DNA from: Escherichia phage vB_EcoM_SYGD1
DNA length: 64,000 bases
Sequence record: MW883059
Reading direction: 5' to 3' (one strand)
Below are positions 38,649 through 61,098 of the stretch, piece by piece (position 1 is the first letter of the stretch; each line of letters starts with the position of its first letter). The translations under genes and the position numbers were made by a program. The notes below the pieces were generated by a model, which saw only the letters and a list, made by a program, of their open reading frames with translations, had not been told where the DNA came from and did not search any database.

Positions 38649-38660
38649 TTTCACAAAGTT

Positions 38661-38690
38661 GTTTACACGGGGTTTTAGTTGTGATACTAT
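38661..38690 (+). promoter_or_regulatory. T4-type early promoter cassette
   Basis: GTTTAC at 38661, extended -10 tgtgatactat; preceded by AT-rich UP-like tcacaaagtt. Confidence 0.6.
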
Positions 38691-38726
38691 TACCCTATCA
38701 AAACAAATGAGTGATTGGAGAATAAA

Positions 38727-38999
38727 ATGAAAACATTTAAAGAATTTATCAATGAAGCTACTTTTAACGAAAAAGTAAAAATTAGCAAAGCTGTCAAGAC
38801 TTTGATTGCTGACATCAATTACCTATATGATATTGATTTAACTGACTATGTAACAGTTGGTAACAAACGTAACTATTTCGTGTTTGACATCTCTGAACTT
38901 GACCAGAATCAAATTAACAACATTGAGCGTTTTGCTAATGATAGGGGTCTTCGACACGAGCCTGGTGGCTATAAAAAATACGCAATTTATTTAAAATGA
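38727..38999 (+). CDS. internal-protein-like protein with capsid-targeting-like N-terminus
   Basis: ORF track 38715 (TTG); ATG at 38727 after SD ggag; N-terminus MKTFKEFINEA fits the internal-protein targeting peptide consensus. Confidence 0.55.
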   Translation: MKTFKEFINEATFNEKVKISKAVKTLIADINYLYDIDLTDYVTVGNKRNYFVFDISELDQNQINNIERFANDRGLRHEPGGYKKYAIYLK

Positions 39000-42264: not shown

Positions 42265-42582
42265 GACAAGAAACCGGGTCGCTACCGGTAAGTCGTCGGA
42301 CTGATGTTCCCTGGGTAAGGAATTGCGTTAATAAATCTTTATGATTTGTTGATGCCCTCTTACACCACAGCAGAAACGGCGCACCGAATTATCGATTCGA
42401 GGAAATATCTTTGCCGTAAGCCGAGTAGCGTTTTTGACGGAACGTTCGGATATGGTCGAGATATGGCCTTTTAAAAATATTAAGTAGCGTCAACTGCTTA
42501 ATAACCGGGTTCGAATCCCGGCGTTTCGTACAAACACTTGCCTTAGCAGGTGGAACCCCGACAAGGTTGCCGCAAGGCTTTA
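42265..42582 (+). ncRNA. structured non-coding region, probable small stable RNAs (T4 species 1/2 analog)
   Basis: no ORF; GC-richer than surroundings; hairpins (accgg-gtcgct-accggt) and a tRNA-like T-arm ccggg-ttcgaat-cccgg; same position as T4 rnaC/rnaD. Confidence 0.35.
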
Positions 42583-42610
42583 GCCCCGACCGAAAGGTTG
42601 GGGCTTTTTG
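42583..42610 (+). terminator. Intrinsic terminator
   Basis: GCCCCGACC-GAAA-GGTTGGGGC followed by ttttt. Confidence 0.7.
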
Positions 42611-42611
42611 G

Positions 42612-42619
42612 TATAAATA
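42612..42619 (+). promoter_or_regulatory. Late promoter TATAAATA
   Basis: tataaata directly after the terminator, 40 bp upstream of the 42659 ATG. Confidence 0.5.
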
Positions 42620-42658
42620 TAGTAGTATATTAAATCACGAATTAAAACAGGAAATAAG

Positions 42659-43117
42659 ATGAAATCATATGCTCAATTTTTAAATGAAGCATCCGCTTCA
42701 GATGTTCGCGCTGTAGCAACTGCTGCTATTAAAGCTGGTAAATATTCTTATAAAGATGCTTCTGACGAATCTCGGTACAAGTTCTACGACGATATGAGAG
42801 CTGAAGGCTTTGTGGGTAACTATGTTACCACCGCCTGGAAAAGCCTGGTTGCTACTGGTGCGGCTTTCGAAAAACCTTCTGGTAAACCTGCTCCTAAGGC
42901 TGACCCTAAAGCAGCACAAGAAAAAAATATTGCTAAAGGAATTATTTCTAGGTATGAAGCAATTCTTAAAGAACTTTTGGTAATTAAGACCGAAGGCCAG
43001 AAACTTGCGCGAGCTCATAGTTTCAAAGATAACCCACATGCTCATGACCTAGAGTATGTTGAAGATCTCCAAAAAATCATCAAAGACCGCATTTGGTCTG
43101 CTAAACAAATTAAATAA
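42659..43117 (+). CDS. internal-protein-like protein with capsid-targeting-like N-terminus
   Basis: ORF track 152 aa; N-terminus MKSYAQFLNEA; SD aggaaataag. Confidence 0.5.
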   Translation: MKSYAQFLNEASASDVRAVATAAIKAGKYSYKDASDESRYKFYDDMRAEGFVGNYVTTAWKSLVATGAAFEKPSGKPAPKADPKAAQEKNIAKGIISRYEAILKELLVIKTEGQKLARAHSFKDNPHAHDLEYVEDLQKIIKDRIWSAKQIK

Positions 43118-43125
43118 CATTCTTA

Positions 43126-43152
43126 GCCCCAGCCGAAAGGTTGGGGCTTTTG
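43126..43152 (+). terminator. Intrinsic terminator (near-copy of the one at 42583)
   Basis: GCCCCAGCC-GAAA-GGTTGGGGC followed by tttt. Confidence 0.7.
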
Positions 43153-54978: not shown

Positions 54979-55245
54979 ATGGGCTTTCCTAAATTAGAAG
55001 TAGGCGATTTAGTCTTAACAAAATTGTGGAATGATGCTCAATCAGTAGAAATCTGTCAATATCGTGGAGCAACAGGTAATTTGATGTACACGATTTATAA
55101 CCCAGAAATTTTGTTAGAGTGTCATTTGGAACGCTTTATAAAAGACACTGATAGTATGCCTTATAGTGTATCGATTGTGCGTAAATCTGACACAAAGGAA
55201 TACTCTAAAATTTTAGAAAAAATTCATGCCAATAAAAAGGATTAA
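54979..55245 (+). CDS. small hypothetical protein
   Basis: ORF track 54967 (TTG); ATG at 54979. Confidence 0.4.
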   Translation: MGFPKLEVGDLVLTKLWNDAQSVEICQYRGATGNLMYTIYNPEILLECHLERFIKDTDSMPYSVSIVRKSDTKEYSKILEKIHANKKD

Positions 55246-55246
55246 T

Positions 55247-55777
55247 ATGAAACGATTAGTATTAGAAGTTAGTTCACTTTTTGGTGAATTGGCTATAGAA
55301 AAAGTAAATAATATGTATCGTTTGACGCAAGAAGACGATATGCTATATTTTACGCCTAGCGAAATTATTCATTTAACCCAAATTGAAAAACCTTACACTG
55401 ATAAAATTGTAAGCATTAATGATGAGCATAAAATTCATTTTTATTCTTTATGCCCAGGATTTAATATTGAAAGCGAGTCAATATGCTTATCAATTAATAA
55501 TTGGGATAATTTTATAACTAAAATTAAATATTTTTATTATTCTAACGAAAGAAAACATGGTTTAAAATGGTTTAAAAATTGCAATGCTATTATTACTAAC
55601 GCTTGTAATCAAAATTATGAAACTGTTTTAAATGTATCAAAGTGTTACGAAGAAGGAGATGTCTTAACTATTCGTCAATCGGTAAATGATGTTAATGTTG
55701 TTGTATTAAACAAAGAAGAAGCTGTTTTATTAAAGACTTATCTTGATTCTGTCATTCCAACTATGATTTCAAAGTGA
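55247..55777 (+). CDS. hypothetical protein, tandem paralog A
   Basis: ORF track 55226; ATG at 55247 after SD aaagga; shares GFNIE and C-terminal YL..V.P.M with the next ORF. Confidence 0.45.
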   Translation: MKRLVLEVSSLFGELAIEKVNNMYRLTQEDDMLYFTPSEIIHLTQIEKPYTDKIVSINDEHKIHFYSLCPGFNIESESICLSINNWDNFITKIKYFYYSNERKHGLKWFKNCNAIITNACNQNYETVLNVSKCYEEGDVLTIRQSVNDVNVVVLNKEEAVLLKTYLDSVIPTMISK

Positions 55778-55783
55778 GGAAAT

Positions 55784-56305
55784 ATGTTTATTTCGAGTGA
55801 AAGTGGTTTAATTCGTGTTGAATTTAAAAATGACATCTTCCTTATTCAAGGAGATGATATTATTAAAATGAGTTATGACGAAATCAAGAAAATTTGCCAT
55901 GCTCTTGAAAGTCATGGAAAAGTGAACGCTGTTATTGATATTGGCGATTTATGGGTGACACTTTATGAAGTATCCGAAGGATTTAACATTGAAGATGAAA
56001 ATAACATCTTAGCTATTGATAAAAGAAGTGATTTGTTTGATGTATTAAAAGTTTATGAACATTCAAACGGTGGAAGAAAAGCTGTATTGATTTATCAAAA
56101 ACCGCATTCATGCGGAACTGCTTCAATCATTTCAAATATTGAAGATGAAACTGATACTTATATGTGTGTTTTAAAAGCTGGTGGTGACCGTCATCCGGAT
56201 TTTATTTCTATTCGTCAAAACAATGGAGAAATTTCATTATCAAAATCAGAAGCTGAAGCTATGATTAAGTATTTAACAACTGTTACACCTTCAATGAAAG
56301 GATAA
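55784..56305 (+). CDS. hypothetical protein, tandem paralog B
   Basis: ORF track 173 aa; SD gagga. Confidence 0.5.
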   Translation: MFISSESGLIRVEFKNDIFLIQGDDIIKMSYDEIKKICHALESHGKVNAVIDIGDLWVTLYEVSEGFNIEDENNILAIDKRSDLFDVLKVYEHSNGGRKAVLIYQKPHSCGTASIISNIEDETDTYMCVLKAGGDRHPDFISIRQNNGEISLSKSEAEAMIKYLTTVTPSMKG

Positions 56306-56307
56306 TT

Positions 56308-56769
56308 ATGATTATTAATGAAAGCTCTTGGCACTATAAATTATTCAAAATGTTTAATGATGAATGGAAACGACCTAAGACACTGTGCGCGTATTTTTGG
56401 TCTATTGTTATTCCTACATTTTTCGTTTCTTTTTTCGGATGTACTATACTCGCAGGTCTAACTATCATCTGCGCAGAAATCATGCAGAAATGGCTTATTT
56501 TTGGTAGTTTATGGACTCTTATTCCATCAGCATTTATACTTGCCATTTTGCTTGTTTTACTTATTATTGGTTCATTTGTTATTCCTGCACAACTGCATGA
56601 AAAATATAAAGATTATAAATGGAAAAAGGATTATACTTTACATGTAGAAAATATTGATAGGGCGTATAAAGGTTTACCTCCTATTAAACCCAAGAAATCT
56701 ATTATCGTCGAATTTTTAAAAGCTCGTAAAGCTAAAGTATGTCCTGTTATTGAATATAAGGCTGAATGA
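56308..56769 (+). CDS. integral membrane protein (3-4 predicted helices)
   Basis: ORF track 153 aa; long hydrophobic stretches. Confidence 0.5.
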   Translation: MIINESSWHYKLFKMFNDEWKRPKTLCAYFWSIVIPTFFVSFFGCTILAGLTIICAEIMQKWLIFGSLWTLIPSAFILAILLVLLIIGSFVIPAQLHEKYKDYKWKKDYTLHVENIDRAYKGLPPIKPKKSIIVEFLKARKAKVCPVIEYKAE

Positions 56770-57779
56770 TGAAAACAGTAATGAAAAGCTATTTTGGTAG
56801 TCATCTTTATGGAACTTCTACCCCAGAATCTGATGTAGATTTTAAAGAAATTTTTGTTCCTCCTGCTCGTGATATTCTTATCGGAAACGTCAAAGAGCAC
56901 ATGAGTAAAAACACCAACAACACATCATCTAAAAACACTAAAGATGATATTGACCACGAATTGTATAGTCTTAAGTATTTCTTTAAATTAGCAGCAGATG
57001 GTGAAACCGTAGCATTGGATATGCTTCACACTCCACCTGAACTAGTGGTTAAATCTGATTTGCCTGATGTGTGGAAGTTTATTCAAGACAACCGTTCTCG
57101 TTTTTATACGACTAACATGAAATCCTATTTAGGATATGTCCGTAAGCAAGCTTCTAAATACGGTGTCAAGGGTTCTCGTTTGGCTGCATTACGTGATGTA
57201 TTGAAAGTAGTTAATCAAATCCCTGAGCAATGGGTTGATTACCAAGAAGACGGTTCCATTAAGCAGCGTCGTACTAAAGTTGAAGATATTAAGCATCGTC
57301 TTCCAAAAAACGAATTCTGTGAATGGGTGTTCCATGATCATGAGAAAACAGGCCCACAAACGTTCTATACTGTATTGGGTCGTAAATATCAGACAACGCT
57401 TTCTCTTATTGAGCTTAAGCAGTCACTGAACAAATTAAATGCTGAATATGGTGAACGCGCTCGTAAGGCCGAAGCCAATGAAGGCATCGACTGGAAAGCT
57501 CTGAGCCATGCTTGTCGTGGTGGACTTCAACTATTGGAAATTTACAAAACTGGTGACTTGGTTTATCCACTTCAAGACGCTCCATTTATTCTCGACGTGA
57601 AGTTGGGTAAACATCCATTTAAAACAGTTCAAGAGTTTTTGGAAGATGTGGTCGATCAAGTAGAAGCAGCATCTACTGAAGCTTCTAAGAACGGTATGCA
57701 GCAAAAAGTAGACATGAGTTTCTGGGATGACTTCCTTGAGAAGGTGTATCTCGAAAACCATCGAAGTTATTATAAATGA
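56766..57779 (+). CDS. protein with N-terminal Pol-beta-type nucleotidyltransferase motif
   Basis: ORF track 337 aa; FGSHLYGTSTPESDVDF fits the minimal NTase signature G[SG]x9-13 DxD close to the N-terminus; large helical C-terminal region. Confidence 0.55.
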   Translation: MMKTVMKSYFGSHLYGTSTPESDVDFKEIFVPPARDILIGNVKEHMSKNTNNTSSKNTKDDIDHELYSLKYFFKLAADGETVALDMLHTPPELVVKSDLPDVWKFIQDNRSRFYTTNMKSYLGYVRKQASKYGVKGSRLAALRDVLKVVNQIPEQWVDYQEDGSIKQRRTKVEDIKHRLPKNEFCEWVFHDHEKTGPQTFYTVLGRKYQTTLSLIELKQSLNKLNAEYGERARKAEANEGIDWKALSHACRGGLQLLEIYKTGDLVYPLQDAPFILDVKLGKHPFKTVQEFLEDVVDQVEAASTEASKNGMQQKVDMSFWDDFLEKVYLENHRSYYK

Positions 57780-57780
57780 T

Positions 57781-57808
57781 AGGGAGCCTTCGGGCTCCTT
57801 TTTTTTAT
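57781..57808 (+). terminator. Intrinsic terminator
   Basis: AGGGAGCC-TTCG-GGCTCCT followed by ttttttttattt. Confidence 0.7.
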
Positions 57809-57830
57809 TTCAAAAATTTTTCACAAAGTT

Positions 57831-57860
57831 GTTTACTTCTATCATAAAGCATATTATAAT
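57831..57860 (+). promoter_or_regulatory. T4-type early promoter cassette
   Basis: UP-like caaaaatttttcacaaagtt, GTTTAC at 57831, 18 bp spacer, TATAAT at 57855. Confidence 0.65.
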
Positions 57861-57892
57861 ATATTTGTAGTTAATTAATCGTTCTTTAAAAA

Positions 57893-58393
57893 ATGAAGAG
57901 AAACACAATGCATATTTTAATGAAATGCCTTGGCAACAAAATTAATGATTTTAATCATAAGCGTGTTAATGATTACATTAAAGACACACTTGAGATTAAA
58001 GACGTACTTTTTAGAGGACTTACAATAGAGGAAGTACTATCTCATAAGTTTGAAGTTAATAGGAGAATCAAATTTAAAAGAATAACTTCCTTTAGTAGTG
58101 AATCTCATATAGCTGAAACATTTGCAGCAGAACGCTATATGACTAATGTTTTAATAGTGTTAAAAAATGCAAACGTTTTTGACTATTCAACTGCTATGAT
58201 TGAAATTTTAGAAAATTTAATCGCAATTGAAGAATCTGGCCAGATTGATGATGATAAGCTTAATAAGCTTTATGATAATCTTTCTATGGTGGATTATGAA
58301 AGAGAGTTTTTATTGCCAATTAATTCGGAGTTAACAGTTAAAAACATATATTTTGATAGCAAAAAGAGCATGCATATAATAGAAATGGAATAA
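57893..58393 (+). CDS. hypothetical protein
   Basis: ORF track 166 aa; bracketed by promoter and terminator copies. Confidence 0.5.
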   Translation: MKRNTMHILMKCLGNKINDFNHKRVNDYIKDTLEIKDVLFRGLTIEEVLSHKFEVNRRIKFKRITSFSSESHIAETFAAERYMTNVLIVLKNANVFDYSTAMIEILENLIAIEESGQIDDDKLNKLYDNLSMVDYEREFLLPINSELTVKNIYFDSKKSMHIIEME

Positions 58394-58401
58394 AAGCATA
58401 A

Positions 58402-58428
58402 AGGGGCCCTAGAGGTCCCCTTTTTTAT
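58402..58428 (+). terminator. Intrinsic terminator
   Basis: GGGGCCC-TAGA-GGTCCCC (one mismatch) followed by ttttttattt. Confidence 0.65.
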
Positions 58429-58450
58429 TTCAAAAATTTTTCACAAAGTG

Positions 58451-58480
58451 GTTTACAAGCATAAAGCTTTATGGTACTAT
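58451..58480 (+). promoter_or_regulatory. T4-type early promoter cassette
   Basis: UP-like caaaaatttttcacaaagtg, GTTTAC at 58451, -10 tggtactat. Confidence 0.6.
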
Positions 58481-58516
58481 ACAACTATCAAAACAAACAC
58501 TTAAACGGAAAACAAA

Positions 58517-58666
58517 ATGAAAATTACACCAATTGAAGTAAAAAAGTTGATTGATACAGAAGAAATTTCAGAGTGTTTTGAAAGTTTCTTAGAAGACGCA
58601 ACTGAAGATAACGCGGTTTATCTCGCCCAGAAAATTATCGAAACTTATTTGGAGAAGAATCAATGA
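58517..58666 (+). CDS. small helical protein (49 aa), possible paralog family member
   Basis: not in ORF track; weak SD; ends ...IIETYLEKNQ; ATGA overlap with next gene. Confidence 0.3.
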   Translation: MKITPIEVKKLIDTEEISECFESFLEDATEDNAVYLAQKIIETYLEKNQ

Positions 58667-58926
58667 CAGTTTACGTAGATGTTTTAATGAATCATGGATG
58701 GAAACTTCGCGGTCATCCAACTAAAAATTGTCATATGTTCACTGATGGAGATATTGAAGAGCTTCATAAAATGGCAGAAGCAATAGGAATGAAACGTTCT
58801 TGGTTTCAAGATAAACGCATTAAACATTATGACTTACACGCGCGCCGCCGCCAAAAAGCTGTAGAACTTGGAGCTGTAGAAGTATCTCGTCGCGAAGCAG
58901 TAAAAATTTGGCAAACATTAAAATAA
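58663..58926 (+). CDS. small conserved protein, DUF4031-like
   Basis: ORF track 87 aa; pattern MTVYVD...RG....CHMF.D...ELH..A..IG..R.WFQ....HYDL resembles the DUF4031 family as I recall it. Confidence 0.45.
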   Translation: MTVYVDVLMNHGWKLRGHPTKNCHMFTDGDIEELHKMAEAIGMKRSWFQDKRIKHYDLHARRRQKAVELGAVEVSRREAVKIWQTLK

Positions 58927-58929
58927 ATT

Positions 58930-58959
58930 GTTTACAGTAGGGTAGTAGTGTGATACTAT
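58930..58959 (+). promoter_or_regulatory. T4-type early promoter cassette
   Basis: GTTTAC at 58930, -10 tgtgatactat inside stem GGGTA...TACCC; same cassette as at the internal-protein-like locus. Confidence 0.6.
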
Positions 58960-58995
58960 TACCCTATCAAAACAAATGTGAAATTGGAGAATAAA

Positions 58996-59964
58996 ATGAA
59001 AACTGTAACTATCAATAAGGGTATCTACTTCGGTAAAGAAATCTCTGGAACTTTTGAGCTCTTAGGCGAATGGTTCCCAGATAATGCTCCGGTAGATGCA
59101 CAAGGAGATGGTAAAGTTTTTGTTGAAATTGACGGTAAGCGTCGCGGTGTTTGGGTTTACAAATCAGACATTTCATATGATGGTGTAAAAGTTGAAGAAG
59201 TTAAAGAATCGTATGAAGATATGAAAACCCGCATTAATAAAAGATTTAATGTTATGGGAATGATGACGAATGGTATTATTAACGGAAATATTCGTTCATT
59301 GATTATCTCTGGCGCAGCAGGTATTGGTAAAACGTATTCTTTAGATAAAGCTTTAAATAAAGCAAATGATATTGGATACATTGAATATAAAAGCATTAAT
59401 GGTAAAATCTCTGGTATTGGTCTTTATGAACAGCTTTGGAATAATCGTGAAGAGAATTCTGTCCTTTTGATTGATGATGTGGATGTTTTCTCTGATATGG
59501 ACATTCTTAATCTTCTAAAAGCCGCTCTGGACACCGGAGAGACCCGTAAAGTCTGCTGGAGCACTGCATCTTCTTACTTAGAAGAAAAAGGCATTGAGCG
59601 TGAGTTTGAATTTAAAGGAACGATTGTTTTTATCACAAACGTTGACATTGACCGCGAATTAGACCGTGGTACTAAACTTGCTCCACATTTACAAGCATTA
59701 GTGTCCCGCTCAGTTTATTTGGATTTGGGTGTTCACACTAATGAAGAAATTATGGTCAGGGTTGAAGATGTTATTCTTTCAACCGACATGATGCAAAAGC
59801 GCGGTCTTTCTGATGAAGAAACTTATAAAGCATTATCATGGATGAAAGTCAATGTTAATCGTTTACGCAATGTTTCACTGCGTACTGCACTTTATCTTGC
59901 TGACTTTATTATGACCGACAAAAATCATTGGGAAGAAATTGCTGAAACGGTATTATTAAAATGA
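58996..59964 (+). CDS. P-loop ATPase (AAA-like)
   Basis: ORF track 58978; ATG at 58996 after SD ggag; Walker A GAAGIGKT, Walker B VLLIDDVD. Confidence 0.6.
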   Translation: MKTVTINKGIYFGKEISGTFELLGEWFPDNAPVDAQGDGKVFVEIDGKRRGVWVYKSDISYDGVKVEEVKESYEDMKTRINKRFNVMGMMTNGIINGNIRSLIISGAAGIGKTYSLDKALNKANDIGYIEYKSINGKISGIGLYEQLWNNREENSVLLIDDVDVFSDMDILNLLKAALDTGETRKVCWSTASSYLEEKGIEREFEFKGTIVFITNVDIDRELDRGTKLAPHLQALVSRSVYLDLGVHTNEEIMVRVEDVILSTDMMQKRGLSDEETYKALSWMKVNVNRLRNVSLRTALYLADFIMTDKNHWEEIAETVLLK

Positions 59965-60680
59965 AAAAATATTTTACTATCTATAAAACTGAAATATTAA
60001 ATTTAAAGACAGGTATTAAGAAATACTATTATGGTCGACATATAACTAATAACATCAATGATTCGTATGTTGGTAGTGGAAATTATATAGAACGTGTAAA
60101 AGTGTCAAATGACCACATATTATCAAAAACGGTTTTAGAAGTTTTTGATAATTATGATAAAATGGTACAAGCTGAAATATTATATATCATGGCAGGTAAA
60201 TTGAAATATGGAAAAAACTGTGTTAACCTGTCATACGGGGGTGAAGGAGGAAAGGTTGCAGATGAAACTAGGATAAAATGCAAAAAGCATTCTATAAATT
60301 TATGGAAAAATCCTAATCATATACAGCATATGAAGAAAAAGATGAAAGAGGTTACATCCACGCCGGAAGCTAAATTAAACACTTCAATAAAAACTTCGCA
60401 ACGATATAAGGACCCAGTTTTTGTTAGAAAAGTTAGTAATATTATTAAAAAGAAACTAAGCAATCCTGTAGTAAAAGAAAAGCATATTAATGGAATTAAA
60501 GCTGCAAAGCGTTCTCATTTAACTATATGGCAGTATGAAGATGAATTATTCGAGCTTTGGAAAGAAACTAAATATGGATGGAGAAAATTTACAAAGGAAG
60601 CTATAAAACACGGATATCCAAATGAACCGTATCGTAGTATGGTATCAACTTTTCAGAAAAGACATTTAGAAGAATCCTAA
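59961..60680 (+). CDS. GIY-YIG homing endonuclease (Seg-like)
   Basis: ORF track 239 aa; FTIYKTE ... KKYYYGRH GIY-YIG motifs; C-terminal repeated basic modules. Confidence 0.7.
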   Translation: MKKYFTIYKTEILNLKTGIKKYYYGRHITNNINDSYVGSGNYIERVKVSNDHILSKTVLEVFDNYDKMVQAEILYIMAGKLKYGKNCVNLSYGGEGGKVADETRIKCKKHSINLWKNPNHIQHMKKKMKEVTSTPEAKLNTSIKTSQRYKDPVFVRKVSNIIKKKLSNPVVKEKHINGIKAAKRSHLTIWQYEDELFELWKETKYGWRKFTKEAIKHGYPNEPYRSMVSTFQKRHLEES

Positions 60681-61068: not shown

Positions 61069-61098
61069 GTTTACAAGACTGTTCCTCTGTGGTACTAT
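61069..61098 (+). promoter_or_regulatory. T4-type early promoter cassette
   Basis: GTTTAC at 61069, -10 tggtactatac. Confidence 0.6.

What the first reader, a model, noticed from the sequence alone, without database searches (positions are those of the whole stretch)
57781..58482. A gene bracketed by two copies of a terminator + UP-element + early-promoter module
57781..57862 and 58401..58482 are near-identical over about 60 bp (hairpin, T-run, atttcaaaaatttttcacaaagt[tg]gtttac, then a -10). They flank the single 166-aa ORF 57893..58393. This is a self-contained expression unit that could be gained or lost by recombination between the repeats.
Basis: seen in the sequence. Interest (0 to 1): 0.45.

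Follow-up and report, generated by a model that had tools for sequence, protein, structure and literature searches.

The report
Promoter-terminator repeats bracketing a swappable phage gene
In this T4-like phage, one small enzyme gene sits between two copies of a terminator-plus-promoter module; related phages have gained or lost the gene by recombination inside that module, a mechanism already described in 2010.

Summary
Two direct copies of a hairpin/T-run/UP-like/-35 module lie 620 bp apart: 54 nt at 85% identity, with a 36-nt core matching 35/36. They are far more alike upstream of the -35 than any other pair of the 12 early promoters in the window. Their spacer and -10 regions are unrelated. 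They bracket one gene, most likely 57908-58393 (161 aa rather than 166).

The window comes from a Tequatrovirus. The site lies between nrdC.11 and nrdC.10. T4 and SG1 lack the gene and carry a single chimeric module there: hairpin of copy A, shared core, promoter of copy B. This is the product expected from recombination in the core.

All four combinations of this cassette and the adjacent 49-aa+DUF4031 cassette exist. In Moonvirus and Gelderlandvirus phages the cassette is 94-95% identical while the flanking genes are only 67-75% identical, so it has crossed genera.

The cargo is a compact ModA/ModB-like ADP-ribosyltransferase with an intact R-S-ExE motif.

The architecture and mechanism match the published PeSL (promoter-early stem-loop) cassettes (Arbiol 2010; Comeau 2014).

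The parts
56766..57779 (+). nrdC.11 homolog (nucleotidyltransferase), the conserved gene upstream of the cassette.
   Evidence: ORF list. Pfam RlaP match, E 1.8e-11. Annotated as nrdC.11/nucleotidyltransferase in ACG-C40, T2, SG1 and T4.
57781..57806 (+). Module A terminator: hairpin AGGGAGCC-TTCG-GGCTCCTT overlapping a run of 8 T. It ends the nrdC.11 transcript (inferred).
   Evidence: Terminator scan. Fold -13.5 kcal/mol, z -3.4. The equivalent hairpin is annotated as a putative terminator in the G29 and G2133 records. T4 and SG1, which lack the ORF, keep this hairpin with only the run that follows it differing.
57801..57836 (+). Shared core, copy A: T-run, A5T5/CACAAA UP-like tract and GTTTAC -35. 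This is the recombination substrate.
   Evidence: 35/36 identical to 58421-58456 and unique to these two sites. Rank 1 of 66 promoter pairs.
57832..57860 (+). Promoter A core: -35 TTTACT, 17-nt spacer, -10 TATAAT, no TGn. Predicted start is near 57867. This part travels with the ORF.
   Evidence: Promoter scan, 10/12. Promoter list. From GTTTAC onward it is nearly identical in Moon, KM16 and STML-198, although the sequence upstream of it differs there.
57908..58393 (+). Cargo gene: 161-aa Mod-family ADP-ribosyltransferase-like protein. The longest ORF starts at 57893 (166 aa).
   Evidence: PHROG 832 'RNA polymerase ADP-ribosylase', E 6.4e-24. BLASTP to T4 ModA 28%, E 7e-11, and to ModB 28%, E 4e-14. 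R36-G37, S61, E131 and E133 are invariant in the alignment with ModA and ModB. Homologs carry precomputed Pfam PF26816 Mod_ADP_RT.
58400..58426 (+). Module B terminator: hairpin GGGGCC-CTAGA-GGTCCCC plus T6. It ends the cargo transcript (inferred).
   Evidence: Terminator scan. Fold -12.0 kcal/mol, but not distinct from shuffles (z -1.4; 17 of 200 fold as well). Annotated as a putative terminator in G29 and G2133. It travels with the ORF into Moon and KM16.
58421..58456 (+). Shared core, copy B.
58452..58480 (+). Promoter B core: -35 TTTACA, 17-nt spacer, TGG + TACTAT extended -10. It drives the next cassette. This is the promoter found in the single module of T4 and SG1.
   Evidence: Promoter scan. 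Junction sequences.
58517..58926 (+). Neighbouring second cassette: 49-aa ORF (58517-58666) plus 87-aa DUF4031 protein (58663-58926). It is present or absent independently of the first cassette.
   Evidence: Pfam DUF4031, E 1.6e-21. PHROGs 6888 and 4887. Absent in T2 and T4, present in SG1 and ACG-C40.
58930..58959 (+). Promoter C (GTTTACA, 17-nt spacer, TGA + TACTAT) without an upstream hairpin. It drives nrdC.10 (58996-59964).
   Evidence: No stable fold upstream (-2.2 kcal/mol, z +0.3).

Best explanation
This is a PeSL-bracketed gene cassette in a hyperplastic region of a T4-like (Tequatrovirus) genome. PeSL stands for promoter-early stem-loop.

Expression (inferred):
- Each module combines an intrinsic terminator for the upstream transcript with a strong sigma-70 early promoter (UP-like tract, GTTTAC -35, 17 nt, -10) for the next gene.
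- Promoter A therefore transcribes a short monocistronic early mRNA of roughly 560 nt for a 161-aa Mod-like ADP-ribosyltransferase. Terminator B ends it.
- Promoter B restarts transcription for the next cassette.

Gain and loss:
- The two modules share a 36-54 bp direct repeat 620 bp apart.
- Recombination inside that repeat removes the unit and leaves one chimeric module. The reverse reaction inserts the unit at a resident module.

Shown by comparison:
- The empty site carries the predicted chimera.
- This cassette and its neighbour occur in all four combinations.
- Presence or absence does not follow flank similarity.
- The cassette has moved between phage genera.

Inferred, not shown:
- That the terminators and promoters function as such.
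- That the phage's general recombination machinery does the exchange, rather than a site-specific enzyme.
- That a 620-bp circular intermediate exists.
- That the cargo is enzymatically active.
For: 1. The repeat is real and exceeds the promoter consensus.

2. Empty-site chimeras exist. The T4 intergenic module and the SG1 module both consist of hairpin A, the shared core and the spacer/-10 of B.

3. Four states are seen at this site (ART cassette / DUF4031 cassette): T4 -/-, T2 +/-, SG1 -/+, window and ACG-C40 +/+. The cargo is in 43 records, out of the 723 records that matched the 2.5-kb region.

4. Over the last 580 bp of nrdC.11, the nearest relative of T4(-/-) is ACG-C40(+/+), and the nearest relative of SG1(-/+) is Manna(+/-). 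Presence therefore does not track the flanks.

5. In Moon, KM16 (Moonvirus) and STML-198 (Gelderlandvirus), window 57787-58446 aligns at 94-95%, while nrdC.11 is 67% and nrdC.10 73-76% identical. Near-identity starts at the -35 of A and ends in the UP tract of B.

6. The left junction exists in at least three forms: the HY01-type UP allele, the window-type allele and the Moon-type upstream sequence. A-versus-B core identity ranges from 26/38 to 37/38 between genomes. ACG-C40, G29 and AV121 have the last positions before the -35 homogenised between A and B. This indicates variable crossover or conversion end-points, as homologous recombination would give.

7. The architecture and mechanism match published PeSLs, including the consensus TTTACW-N17-TAYWAT with the stem-loop just upstream in the T4/PST group (PMC4122927) and the excision/insertion model with a chimeric PeSL (PMC2839356).

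8. T4 early promoters are described as UP/-35/TGn/-10 promoters (PMC2988021).
Against: - No transcript ends, promoter activity or termination were measured. All of these are inferred from consensus and folding. By folding energy alone, hairpin B is not distinguishable from shuffled sequence.
- Every one of the five loci outside Tequatrovirus that I examined (Moon, STML-198, KM16 in detail) has the cassette at the syntenic nrdC.11-nrdC.10 site. Replacement by double crossover in flanking homology during co-infection explains the data as well as a free circle does.
- The near-identity of A and B is specific to some lineages (26-28/38 in HY01, EP01, G2133, 215Ecol, Moon, KM16). The long repeat seen in this window may be a consequence of exchange, not its original substrate.
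- A repeat of 36-54 bp is short for efficient T4 homologous recombination (my recollection of Singer et al. 1982, not checked here).
- The direction of each event, gain or loss, cannot be read from the sequences.
Confidence: 0.85

Rival explanations
1. The two modules are alike only because both are strong early promoters behind terminators (functional convergence on a consensus). The gene's patchy distribution would then come from unrelated deletions or from replacement of larger blocks, with no role for the repeat.
For: All 12 early promoters in the window share GTTTAC, a 17-nt spacer and a TAnnnT -10, and several share the 'TTTCACAAA' motif. In HY01-type and Moon-type genomes the two modules are only 26-28/38 alike, yet the cassette is there.
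Against: The 35/36 core identity is far above the at most 61% that any other promoter pair reaches in the same segment. Empty sites in T4 and SG1 switch from A-type to B-type sequence inside the shared core. In Moon and KM16 the near-identity also starts and ends inside the modules.
Confidence: 0.07
2. The exchange is site-specific. An unknown phage or host recombinase or nuclease recognises the conserved core (for example ATTTCAAAAATTTTTCACAAAG) and cuts and rejoins at a fixed position, as with an integron attC or a homing site.
For: [quoted passage not shown] The core is unusually conserved for its length. T4-like genomes are rich in homing endonucleases, and one lies about 1.6 kb downstream at 59961-60680.
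Against: The cassette encodes no recombinase or nuclease; its only gene is an ART homolog. The left junction differs between lineages: the switch is in the T-run in HY01-type genomes, in CACAAA in window-type genomes and at GTTTAC in Moon-type genomes. That argues for variable crossover points. No target-site duplication is seen beyond the module itself.
Confidence: 0.06
3. The ORF is not a real gene. On this reading the interval is non-coding spacer left by a tandem duplication of the intergenic module.
For: The local Pfam and NCBIfam scans gave no hit. The single-sequence AlphaFold model was poor, pLDDT 34. The BW-1 copy is frameshifted.
Against: The ORF is intact in 42 of the 43 records at 93-99% DNA identity. 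It also has protein homologs at 61% and 54% identity in other contigs. It matches PHROG 832 and T4 ModA and ModB, with the catalytic R, S and ExE residues invariant. Homologs are assigned to Pfam PF26816 Mod_ADP_RT.
Confidence: 0.02

Closest known systems
PeSL (promoter-early stem-loop) cassettes of T4-type phages (Arbiol et al. 2010, PMC2839356; Comeau et al. 2014, PMC4122927)
   Same: Both are composite modules with an AT-rich tract, a sigma-70-like early promoter and a terminator stem-loop. Both sit between genes in a hyperplastic region, directly upstream of an accessory ORF with its own Shine-Dalgarno sequence. One phage has the ORF flanked by two modules while a relative has a single chimeric module. 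The promoter fits the T4/PST-group consensus TTTACW-N17-TAYWAT, with the stem-loop just upstream of the promoter.
   Different: This site (nrdC.11/nrdC.10) and this cargo are not mentioned in the text of the 2014 paper. Here the cargo has a recognisable function and is not an ORFan. Transfer between genera (Tequatrovirus to or from Moonvirus and Gelderlandvirus) is documented. The mini-circle shown experimentally for RB49 and phi1 has not been shown for this unit.
T4 internal-protein (IP) locus shuffling (Repoila et al. 1994, as cited in PMC4122927)
   Same: Short accessory genes are swapped between T-even phages at conserved promoter/leader and terminator sequences. The window's own IP region (38.6-43.3 kb) has the same kinds of repeats, and promoter C here is 84% identical over 79 nt to an IP-locus promoter.
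   Different: It is a different locus with different cargo. I did not read the 1994 paper.
Integron gene cassettes
   Same: Both are single-gene units that are gained or lost at short conserved sites, possibly through a circular intermediate.
   Different: Integron cassettes usually lack a promoter and rely on a dedicated integrase acting at attC/attI. Here each unit brings its own promoter and terminator, no integrase is present, and junction positions vary. The resemblance is an analogy only.
T4 ModA/ModB ADP-ribosyltransferases (for the cargo)
   Same: 28% identity to each. The R-S-ExE catalytic residues are conserved. Both are expressed early, and homologs carry the same Pfam family (PF26816).
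   Different: The cargo is about 40 residues shorter at the N-terminus (161 aa against 200 and 207). It lies at a different locus and is present in only a small minority of relatives. Its target is unknown.

Membership tests
PeSL (promoter-early stem-loop) regulatory cassette | A sigma-70-type early promoter with -35 and -10 hexamers about 17 nt apart (T4/PST group: TTTACW-N17-TAYWAT). | tested here: met
   A: TTTACT-17-TATAAT. B: TTTACA-17-TACTAT with TGn. Consensus taken from PMC4122927.
PeSL (promoter-early stem-loop) regulatory cassette | An AT-rich tract upstream of the -35. | tested here: met
   ATTTCAAAAATTTTTCACAAAGT lies directly upstream of GTTTAC in both copies.
PeSL (promoter-early stem-loop) regulatory cassette | A stable stem-loop within the module that can act as a terminator or attenuator. 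| tested here: met
   Hairpins fold at -13.5 and -12.0 kcal/mol and are followed by T8 and T6. Only hairpin A differs clearly from shuffled sequence (z -3.4 against -1.4). Termination itself was not measured.
PeSL (promoter-early stem-loop) regulatory cassette | An intergenic position in a variable (hyperplastic) region, immediately upstream of an accessory ORF with a Shine-Dalgarno sequence and start codon. | tested here: met
   The nrdC.11-nrdC.10 interval differs among T4, T2, SG1 and ACG-C40. A Shine-Dalgarno sequence and ATG follow each module.
PeSL (promoter-early stem-loop) regulatory cassette | Association with indels between close relatives: two flanking modules in one phage and a single chimeric module in another. 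| tested here: met
   The single modules of T4 and SG1 consist of hairpin A, the core and promoter B.
PeSL (promoter-early stem-loop) regulatory cassette | Formation of an excised mini-circle carrying the ORF and one chimeric PeSL. | not testable with these tools
   This needs outward-facing PCR or deep sequencing of infected cells or virions, as in PMC2839356.
Mod-type ADP-ribosyltransferase (Pfam PF26816 Mod_ADP_RT; T4 ModA/ModB) | Significant sequence similarity to ModA/ModB or to the family profile. | tested here: met
   BLASTP E 7e-11 (ModA) and 4e-14 (ModB). PHROG 832, E 6.4e-24. PF26816 is precomputed for the 94%, 61% and 54% homologs. The local Pfam copy gave no hit for the window protein, possibly because that model is not in the copy.
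Mod-type ADP-ribosyltransferase (Pfam PF26816 Mod_ADP_RT; T4 ModA/ModB) | The R-S-ExE catalytic motif of arginine-specific ADP-ribosyltransferases. | tested here: met
   R36-G37 (LFRG), S61 (TSFSS) and E131/E133 (EREFLLP) are invariant across the window protein, three homologs, ModA and ModB. The motif definition is from my own knowledge of the family.
Mod-type ADP-ribosyltransferase (Pfam PF26816 Mod_ADP_RT; T4 ModA/ModB) | The ADP-ribosyltransferase fold. | tested here: inconclusive
   The single-sequence AlphaFold2 model had mean pLDDT 34, so no fold search was run. There was no PDB sequence match at E up to 10.
Mod-type ADP-ribosyltransferase (Pfam PF26816 Mod_ADP_RT; T4 ModA/ModB) | NAD-dependent ADP-ribosylation of a host target. 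| not testable with these tools
   This needs biochemistry.

The most novel reading that the evidence does not exclude
The 620-bp unit (core promoter A, ORF, terminator B and the left part of the UP tract) may be a transferable PeSL mini-circle that moved from a Tequatrovirus-like donor into Moonvirus and Gelderlandvirus phages. Its cargo would be a third, N-terminally shortened Mod-family ADP-ribosyltransferase with a target of its own. One possible target is the RNA polymerase alpha C-terminal domain. In that case the enzyme would switch off UP-dependent early promoters, including the one that drives it. Another possibility is a host defence factor.
Probability: 0.25. Interest if true: 0.55.

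Novelty: new member of a known kind. Interest (0 to 1): 0.3.

Why it matters
This is a compact, well-resolved natural example of how T4-like phages shuffle accessory genes. All four allelic states, the chimeric empty-site junction and a cross-genus transfer are visible at one 1.2-kb site. That makes it a convenient locus for measuring PeSL-mediated excision and insertion experimentally, for instance in T2 against T4.

The cargo adds a little. It is an uncharacterised third Mod-like ADP-ribosyltransferase, present in T2 but not T4, which could contribute to differences between these model phages.

It does not change current understanding, because the mechanism was proposed and partly demonstrated in 2010-2014.

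Tried and rejected
- Local Pfam and NCBIfam scans of the cargo gave nothing.
- phmmer against PDB sequences gave nothing at E up to 10.
- Single-sequence AlphaFold2 gave an unusable model (pLDDT 34), so I ran no fold search. I ran no further search on a deeper alignment, because three independent sequence lines already identify the family.
- An exact-pattern scan of IMG/VR for the unique part of promoter A returned only three contigs, whose lengths match the CF1, STML-198 and Moon records already found in GenBank. It added nothing.
- A loose UP/-35 pattern search was no better than chance (9 found against 7.5 expected). I replaced it with an explicit GTTTAC-N17-TAnnnT scan.
- I considered a transposon or homing-endonuclease origin for the cassette and rejected it. 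The unit contains no such gene and there is no target-site duplication other than the module.
- I considered that the indel of the second cassette (49 aa + DUF4031) is a simple crossover between modules B and C. The junctions do not fit this cleanly, because the nrdC.10 leader of T4 and T2 differs from the window's. I left it as promoter/leader-associated but unresolved.
- The source phage could not be identified. The best records are about 95-96% identical over 90-93% of 24 kb.

Full report
**What the window is.** The 2.5 kb around the finding matches 723 phage records, almost all of them Tequatrovirus (T4-like). Identity reaches 97.8% with ACG-C40, on the minus strand of those records. A 24-kb query finds no record better than about 95-96% identity over 90-93% of its length, so the source is a T4-like phage that is not itself in the collection. 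On the + strand the gene order is:
- nrdC.11 homolog, 56766-57779 (nucleotidyltransferase; Pfam RlaP)
- the ORF of the finding
- a 49-aa ORF, 58517-58666
- a DUF4031 protein, 58663-58926
- nrdC.10, 58996-59964

**The observation.** The two copies are real. The repeat finder gives 57783-57836 and 58403-58456 as 54 nt at 85% identity with a spacing of 620 bp. The core TTTTTTATTTCAAAAATTTTTCACAAAGT[T/G]GTTTAC matches 35/36. It is found nowhere else in the window even with 3 mismatches, and in none of 100 shuffles.

I located 12 T4-type early promoters on the + strand (GTTTAC, 17-18 nt, TAnnnT) and compared all 66 pairs.
- Upstream of the -35, the A/B pair is the most similar pair by a wide margin: 75% over -60..-1 against at most 47% for others, and 94% over -31..-1 against at most 61%.
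- Downstream of the -35, A and B are unrelated (38%, rank 48 of 66). B resembles the promoters at 61069 and 43286 instead.

However, the repeat consists of the T-run, the UP-like tract and the -35, plus a structurally analogous hairpin. It is not the whole promoter.

Both hairpins fold stably (-13.5 and -12.0 kcal/mol) and precede T-runs. Only hairpin A is clearly more stable than shuffled sequence (z -3.4, against -1.4 for B). The third promoter, at 58930, has no hairpin upstream.

The gene most likely starts at 57908 (161 aa). The ATG at 57893 is TTG in relatives. The Shine-Dalgarno sequence (GAAGAG here, GGAG in Moon) sits 7 nt before 57908, and all annotated relatives use that start.

**Related genomes at the same site.**
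- T4 has nrdC.11 followed by one 114-bp intergenic module and then nrdC.10.
- SG1 has nrdC.11, one module, and then the 49-aa + DUF4031 pair.
- In both, the single module consists of the hairpin of copy A, the shared core, and the spacer, -10 and start region of copy B. A crossover within the shared core would leave this product.
- T2 has the ORF with both modules but lacks the second cassette.
- ACG-C40, FT, G29 and AV121 have both cassettes, like the window.

All four combinations therefore exist. The cargo is present in 43 records. The 2.5-kb region as a whole matched 723 records. The second cassette is found at 90% identity or better in about 150 records.

Over the last 580 bp of nrdC.11, the closest relative of T4 (-/-) is ACG-C40 (+/+), and the closest relative of SG1 (-/+) is Manna (+/-). 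Presence therefore does not follow the flanks. The sample is small: 15 genomes, of which only two lack the cassette.

**Transfer between genera.** The cargo also occurs in Citrobacter phages Moon and CF1 and Salmonella phage KM16, and in Salmonella phage STML-198. Moon and KM16 are Moonvirus and STML-198 is Gelderlandvirus; I did not retrieve CF1's classification.
- In Moon, KM16 and STML-198, window 57787-58446 aligns at 94-95%. The ORF segment alone (57862-58400) is 97.0-97.6% identical.
- The flanking nrdC.11 and nrdC.10 homologs are only 67% and 73-76% identical.
- Near-identity begins at the GTTTAC of promoter A. The hairpin and UP tract upstream of it are different there.
- In Moon and KM16, near-identity ends inside the UP tract after hairpin B.
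- In STML-198 the B module is truncated and fused to a remnant of the T4-type nrdC.10 leader. This points to a Tequatrovirus-like donor.

The constant unit is thus the core promoter A, the leader, the ORF, terminator B and the start of the next UP tract. That is a circular permutation of one module plus one gene.

**Variation of the repeat itself.** Across 15 genomes that carry the cassette, A-versus-B identity over the core ranges from 26-28/38 (HY01, EP01, G2133, 215Ecol, Moon, KM16) to 33-37/38 (window, ACG-C40, FT, G29, AV121, T2, BW-1, LF73P3, Manna).
- Module A has two UP alleles. One is GTTTAAAATGACGTCACAAAGTT. The other is the B-like ATTTCAAAAATTTTTCACAAAGTT, and it looks like a recombinant of the first allele and the B/T4 type, joined at CACAAA.
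- In ACG-C40, G29 and AV121 the last bases before the -35 are the same in A and B but differ between genomes.

I read this as repeated exchange or conversion between the modules with variable end-points. That favours general homologous recombination over a fixed-site mechanism. It also means the long repeat in this window may be partly a product of such exchange. This reading is inference.

**The cargo.** The 161-aa protein has these matches:
- PHROG 832 'RNA polymerase ADP-ribosylase', E 6.4e-24.
- T4 ModA, 28% identity, E 7e-11, and T4 ModB, 28%, E 4e-14.
- In a six-sequence alignment the catalytic R (LFRG), S (SFS) and ExE (EREFLLP) residues are invariant.
- Its 94%, 61% and 54% homologs carry precomputed Pfam PF26816 Mod_ADP_RT.

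It lacks about 40 N-terminal residues of ModA and ModB. Local Pfam, NCBIfam and PDB sequence searches were negative, and the single-sequence structure model failed. It is therefore very probably a third, compact Mod-family ADP-ribosyltransferase. Its activity and target are unknown.

Published work reports that ModA modifies Arg265 of both RNA polymerase alpha subunits and abolishes UP-element recognition (PMC2988021). Whether this paralog does anything similar is speculation.

**Comparison with what is known.** Arbiol et al. 2010 (PMC2839356) defined PeSLs in RB49 and phi1. They are composite early-promoter/stem-loop modules with an AT-rich tract, concentrated in hyperplastic regions upstream of accessory ORFs. 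The authors:
- detected the mini-circles;
- showed promoter and terminator activity for examples.

Comeau et al. 2014 (PMC4122927) extended this to the T4/PST group, with the consensus TTTACW-N17-TAYWAT and stem-loops just upstream of the promoter. The present structure meets every sequence-level defining feature.

The text of the 2014 paper mentions neither nrdC nor ADP-ribosyltransferases, and I found no paper on this specific site. It is therefore a new, particularly clear member of a known kind.

**Verdict.** The mechanism is known. Interest is modest: useful as a model locus and for the uncharacterised Mod paralog, but not surprising to a T4 specialist.

Noticed in passing
window 42580-43151: A second bracketed cassette. 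Two 93%-identical terminator hairpins (TTAGCCCC..GGTTGGGGCTTTT) lie 543 bp apart, at 42580-42608 and 43123-43151. They flank a 152-aa ORF (42659-43117) whose N-terminus MKSYAQFLNEA resembles the repeated N-termini at 38729 and 39062 (MKTFKEFINEA). From my own knowledge, these look like internal-protein capsid-targeting leaders.
   Followed up: partly
window 58925-59003 and 38656-38734: Promoter C, its leader, the Shine-Dalgarno sequence and the first codons of nrdC.10 are 84% identical over 79 nt to a promoter/leader module about 20 kb away in the putative internal-protein region. Module B is 66% identical to the same module. Promoter/leader modules are thus shared between distant loci.
   Followed up: no
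window 59961-60680: A 239-aa homing-endonuclease-like ORF (PHROG 314, E 1.8e-30) overlaps the end of nrdC.10 by 4 bp and precedes nrdC.9. In T4, T2, ACG-C40 and SG1 the nrdC.10-nrdC.9 gap is only about 100 bp, so this gene is an extra insertion in the window's phage.
   Followed up: partly
window 58487-58995 (second cassette); L002 and L005 junctions: The 49-aa + DUF4031 cassette is absent in T4 and T2. There, promoter B runs straight into a different nrdC.10 leader (ACTGATACGGATTTGGAG, against AAACAAATGTGAAATTGGAG in the window). This indel is therefore bounded by the conserved -10/start region (TACTAT...ATCA) and the Shine-Dalgarno sequence, and is not a clean crossover between modules.
   Followed up: partly
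L020 (Escherichia phage BW-1) 747-1231: The ADP-ribosyltransferase gene is annotated as two overlapping CDS (747-1037 and 1034-1231). It is apparently frameshifted in this phage.
   Followed up: no
L008 (Salmonella phage STML-198) 3040-3100: Module B is degenerate. Half of hairpin B is fused directly to a TACTAT -10 and a T4-type nrdC.10 leader remnant, followed by an unrelated 59-aa ORF and then the phage's own promoter and nrdC.10 homolog. This suggests acquisition from a Tequatrovirus-like donor followed by an internal deletion.
   Followed up: partly
L023 3001-3546 (Logan contig ERR12726568_1671): A 61%-identical homolog of the cargo (181 aa) sits at a different locus in a more distant T4-like contig, between regA and DNA polymerase gene 43. 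It starts 18 bp after the regA stop, with no upstream module. A terminator hairpin and an extended -10 promoter are present only downstream.
   Followed up: partly
window 57843-57852, 58394-58403, 58457-58466: The motif (A)AGCATAAAG recurs in the spacer of promoter A, just after the cargo stop codon before hairpin B, and in the spacer of promoter B. 58383-58403 and 58446-58466 are 81% identical over 21 nt. This may be a scar of an older crossover inside a promoter spacer, or it may be chance.
   Followed up: no
window 55226-56769: Three ORFs of 183, 173 and 153 aa lie upstream of nrdC.11 and are shared with ACG-C40 and SG1. T4 has the mobD homing endonuclease at this position, and T2 has three smaller ORFs. 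This is another variable segment of the same hyperplastic region.
   Followed up: no
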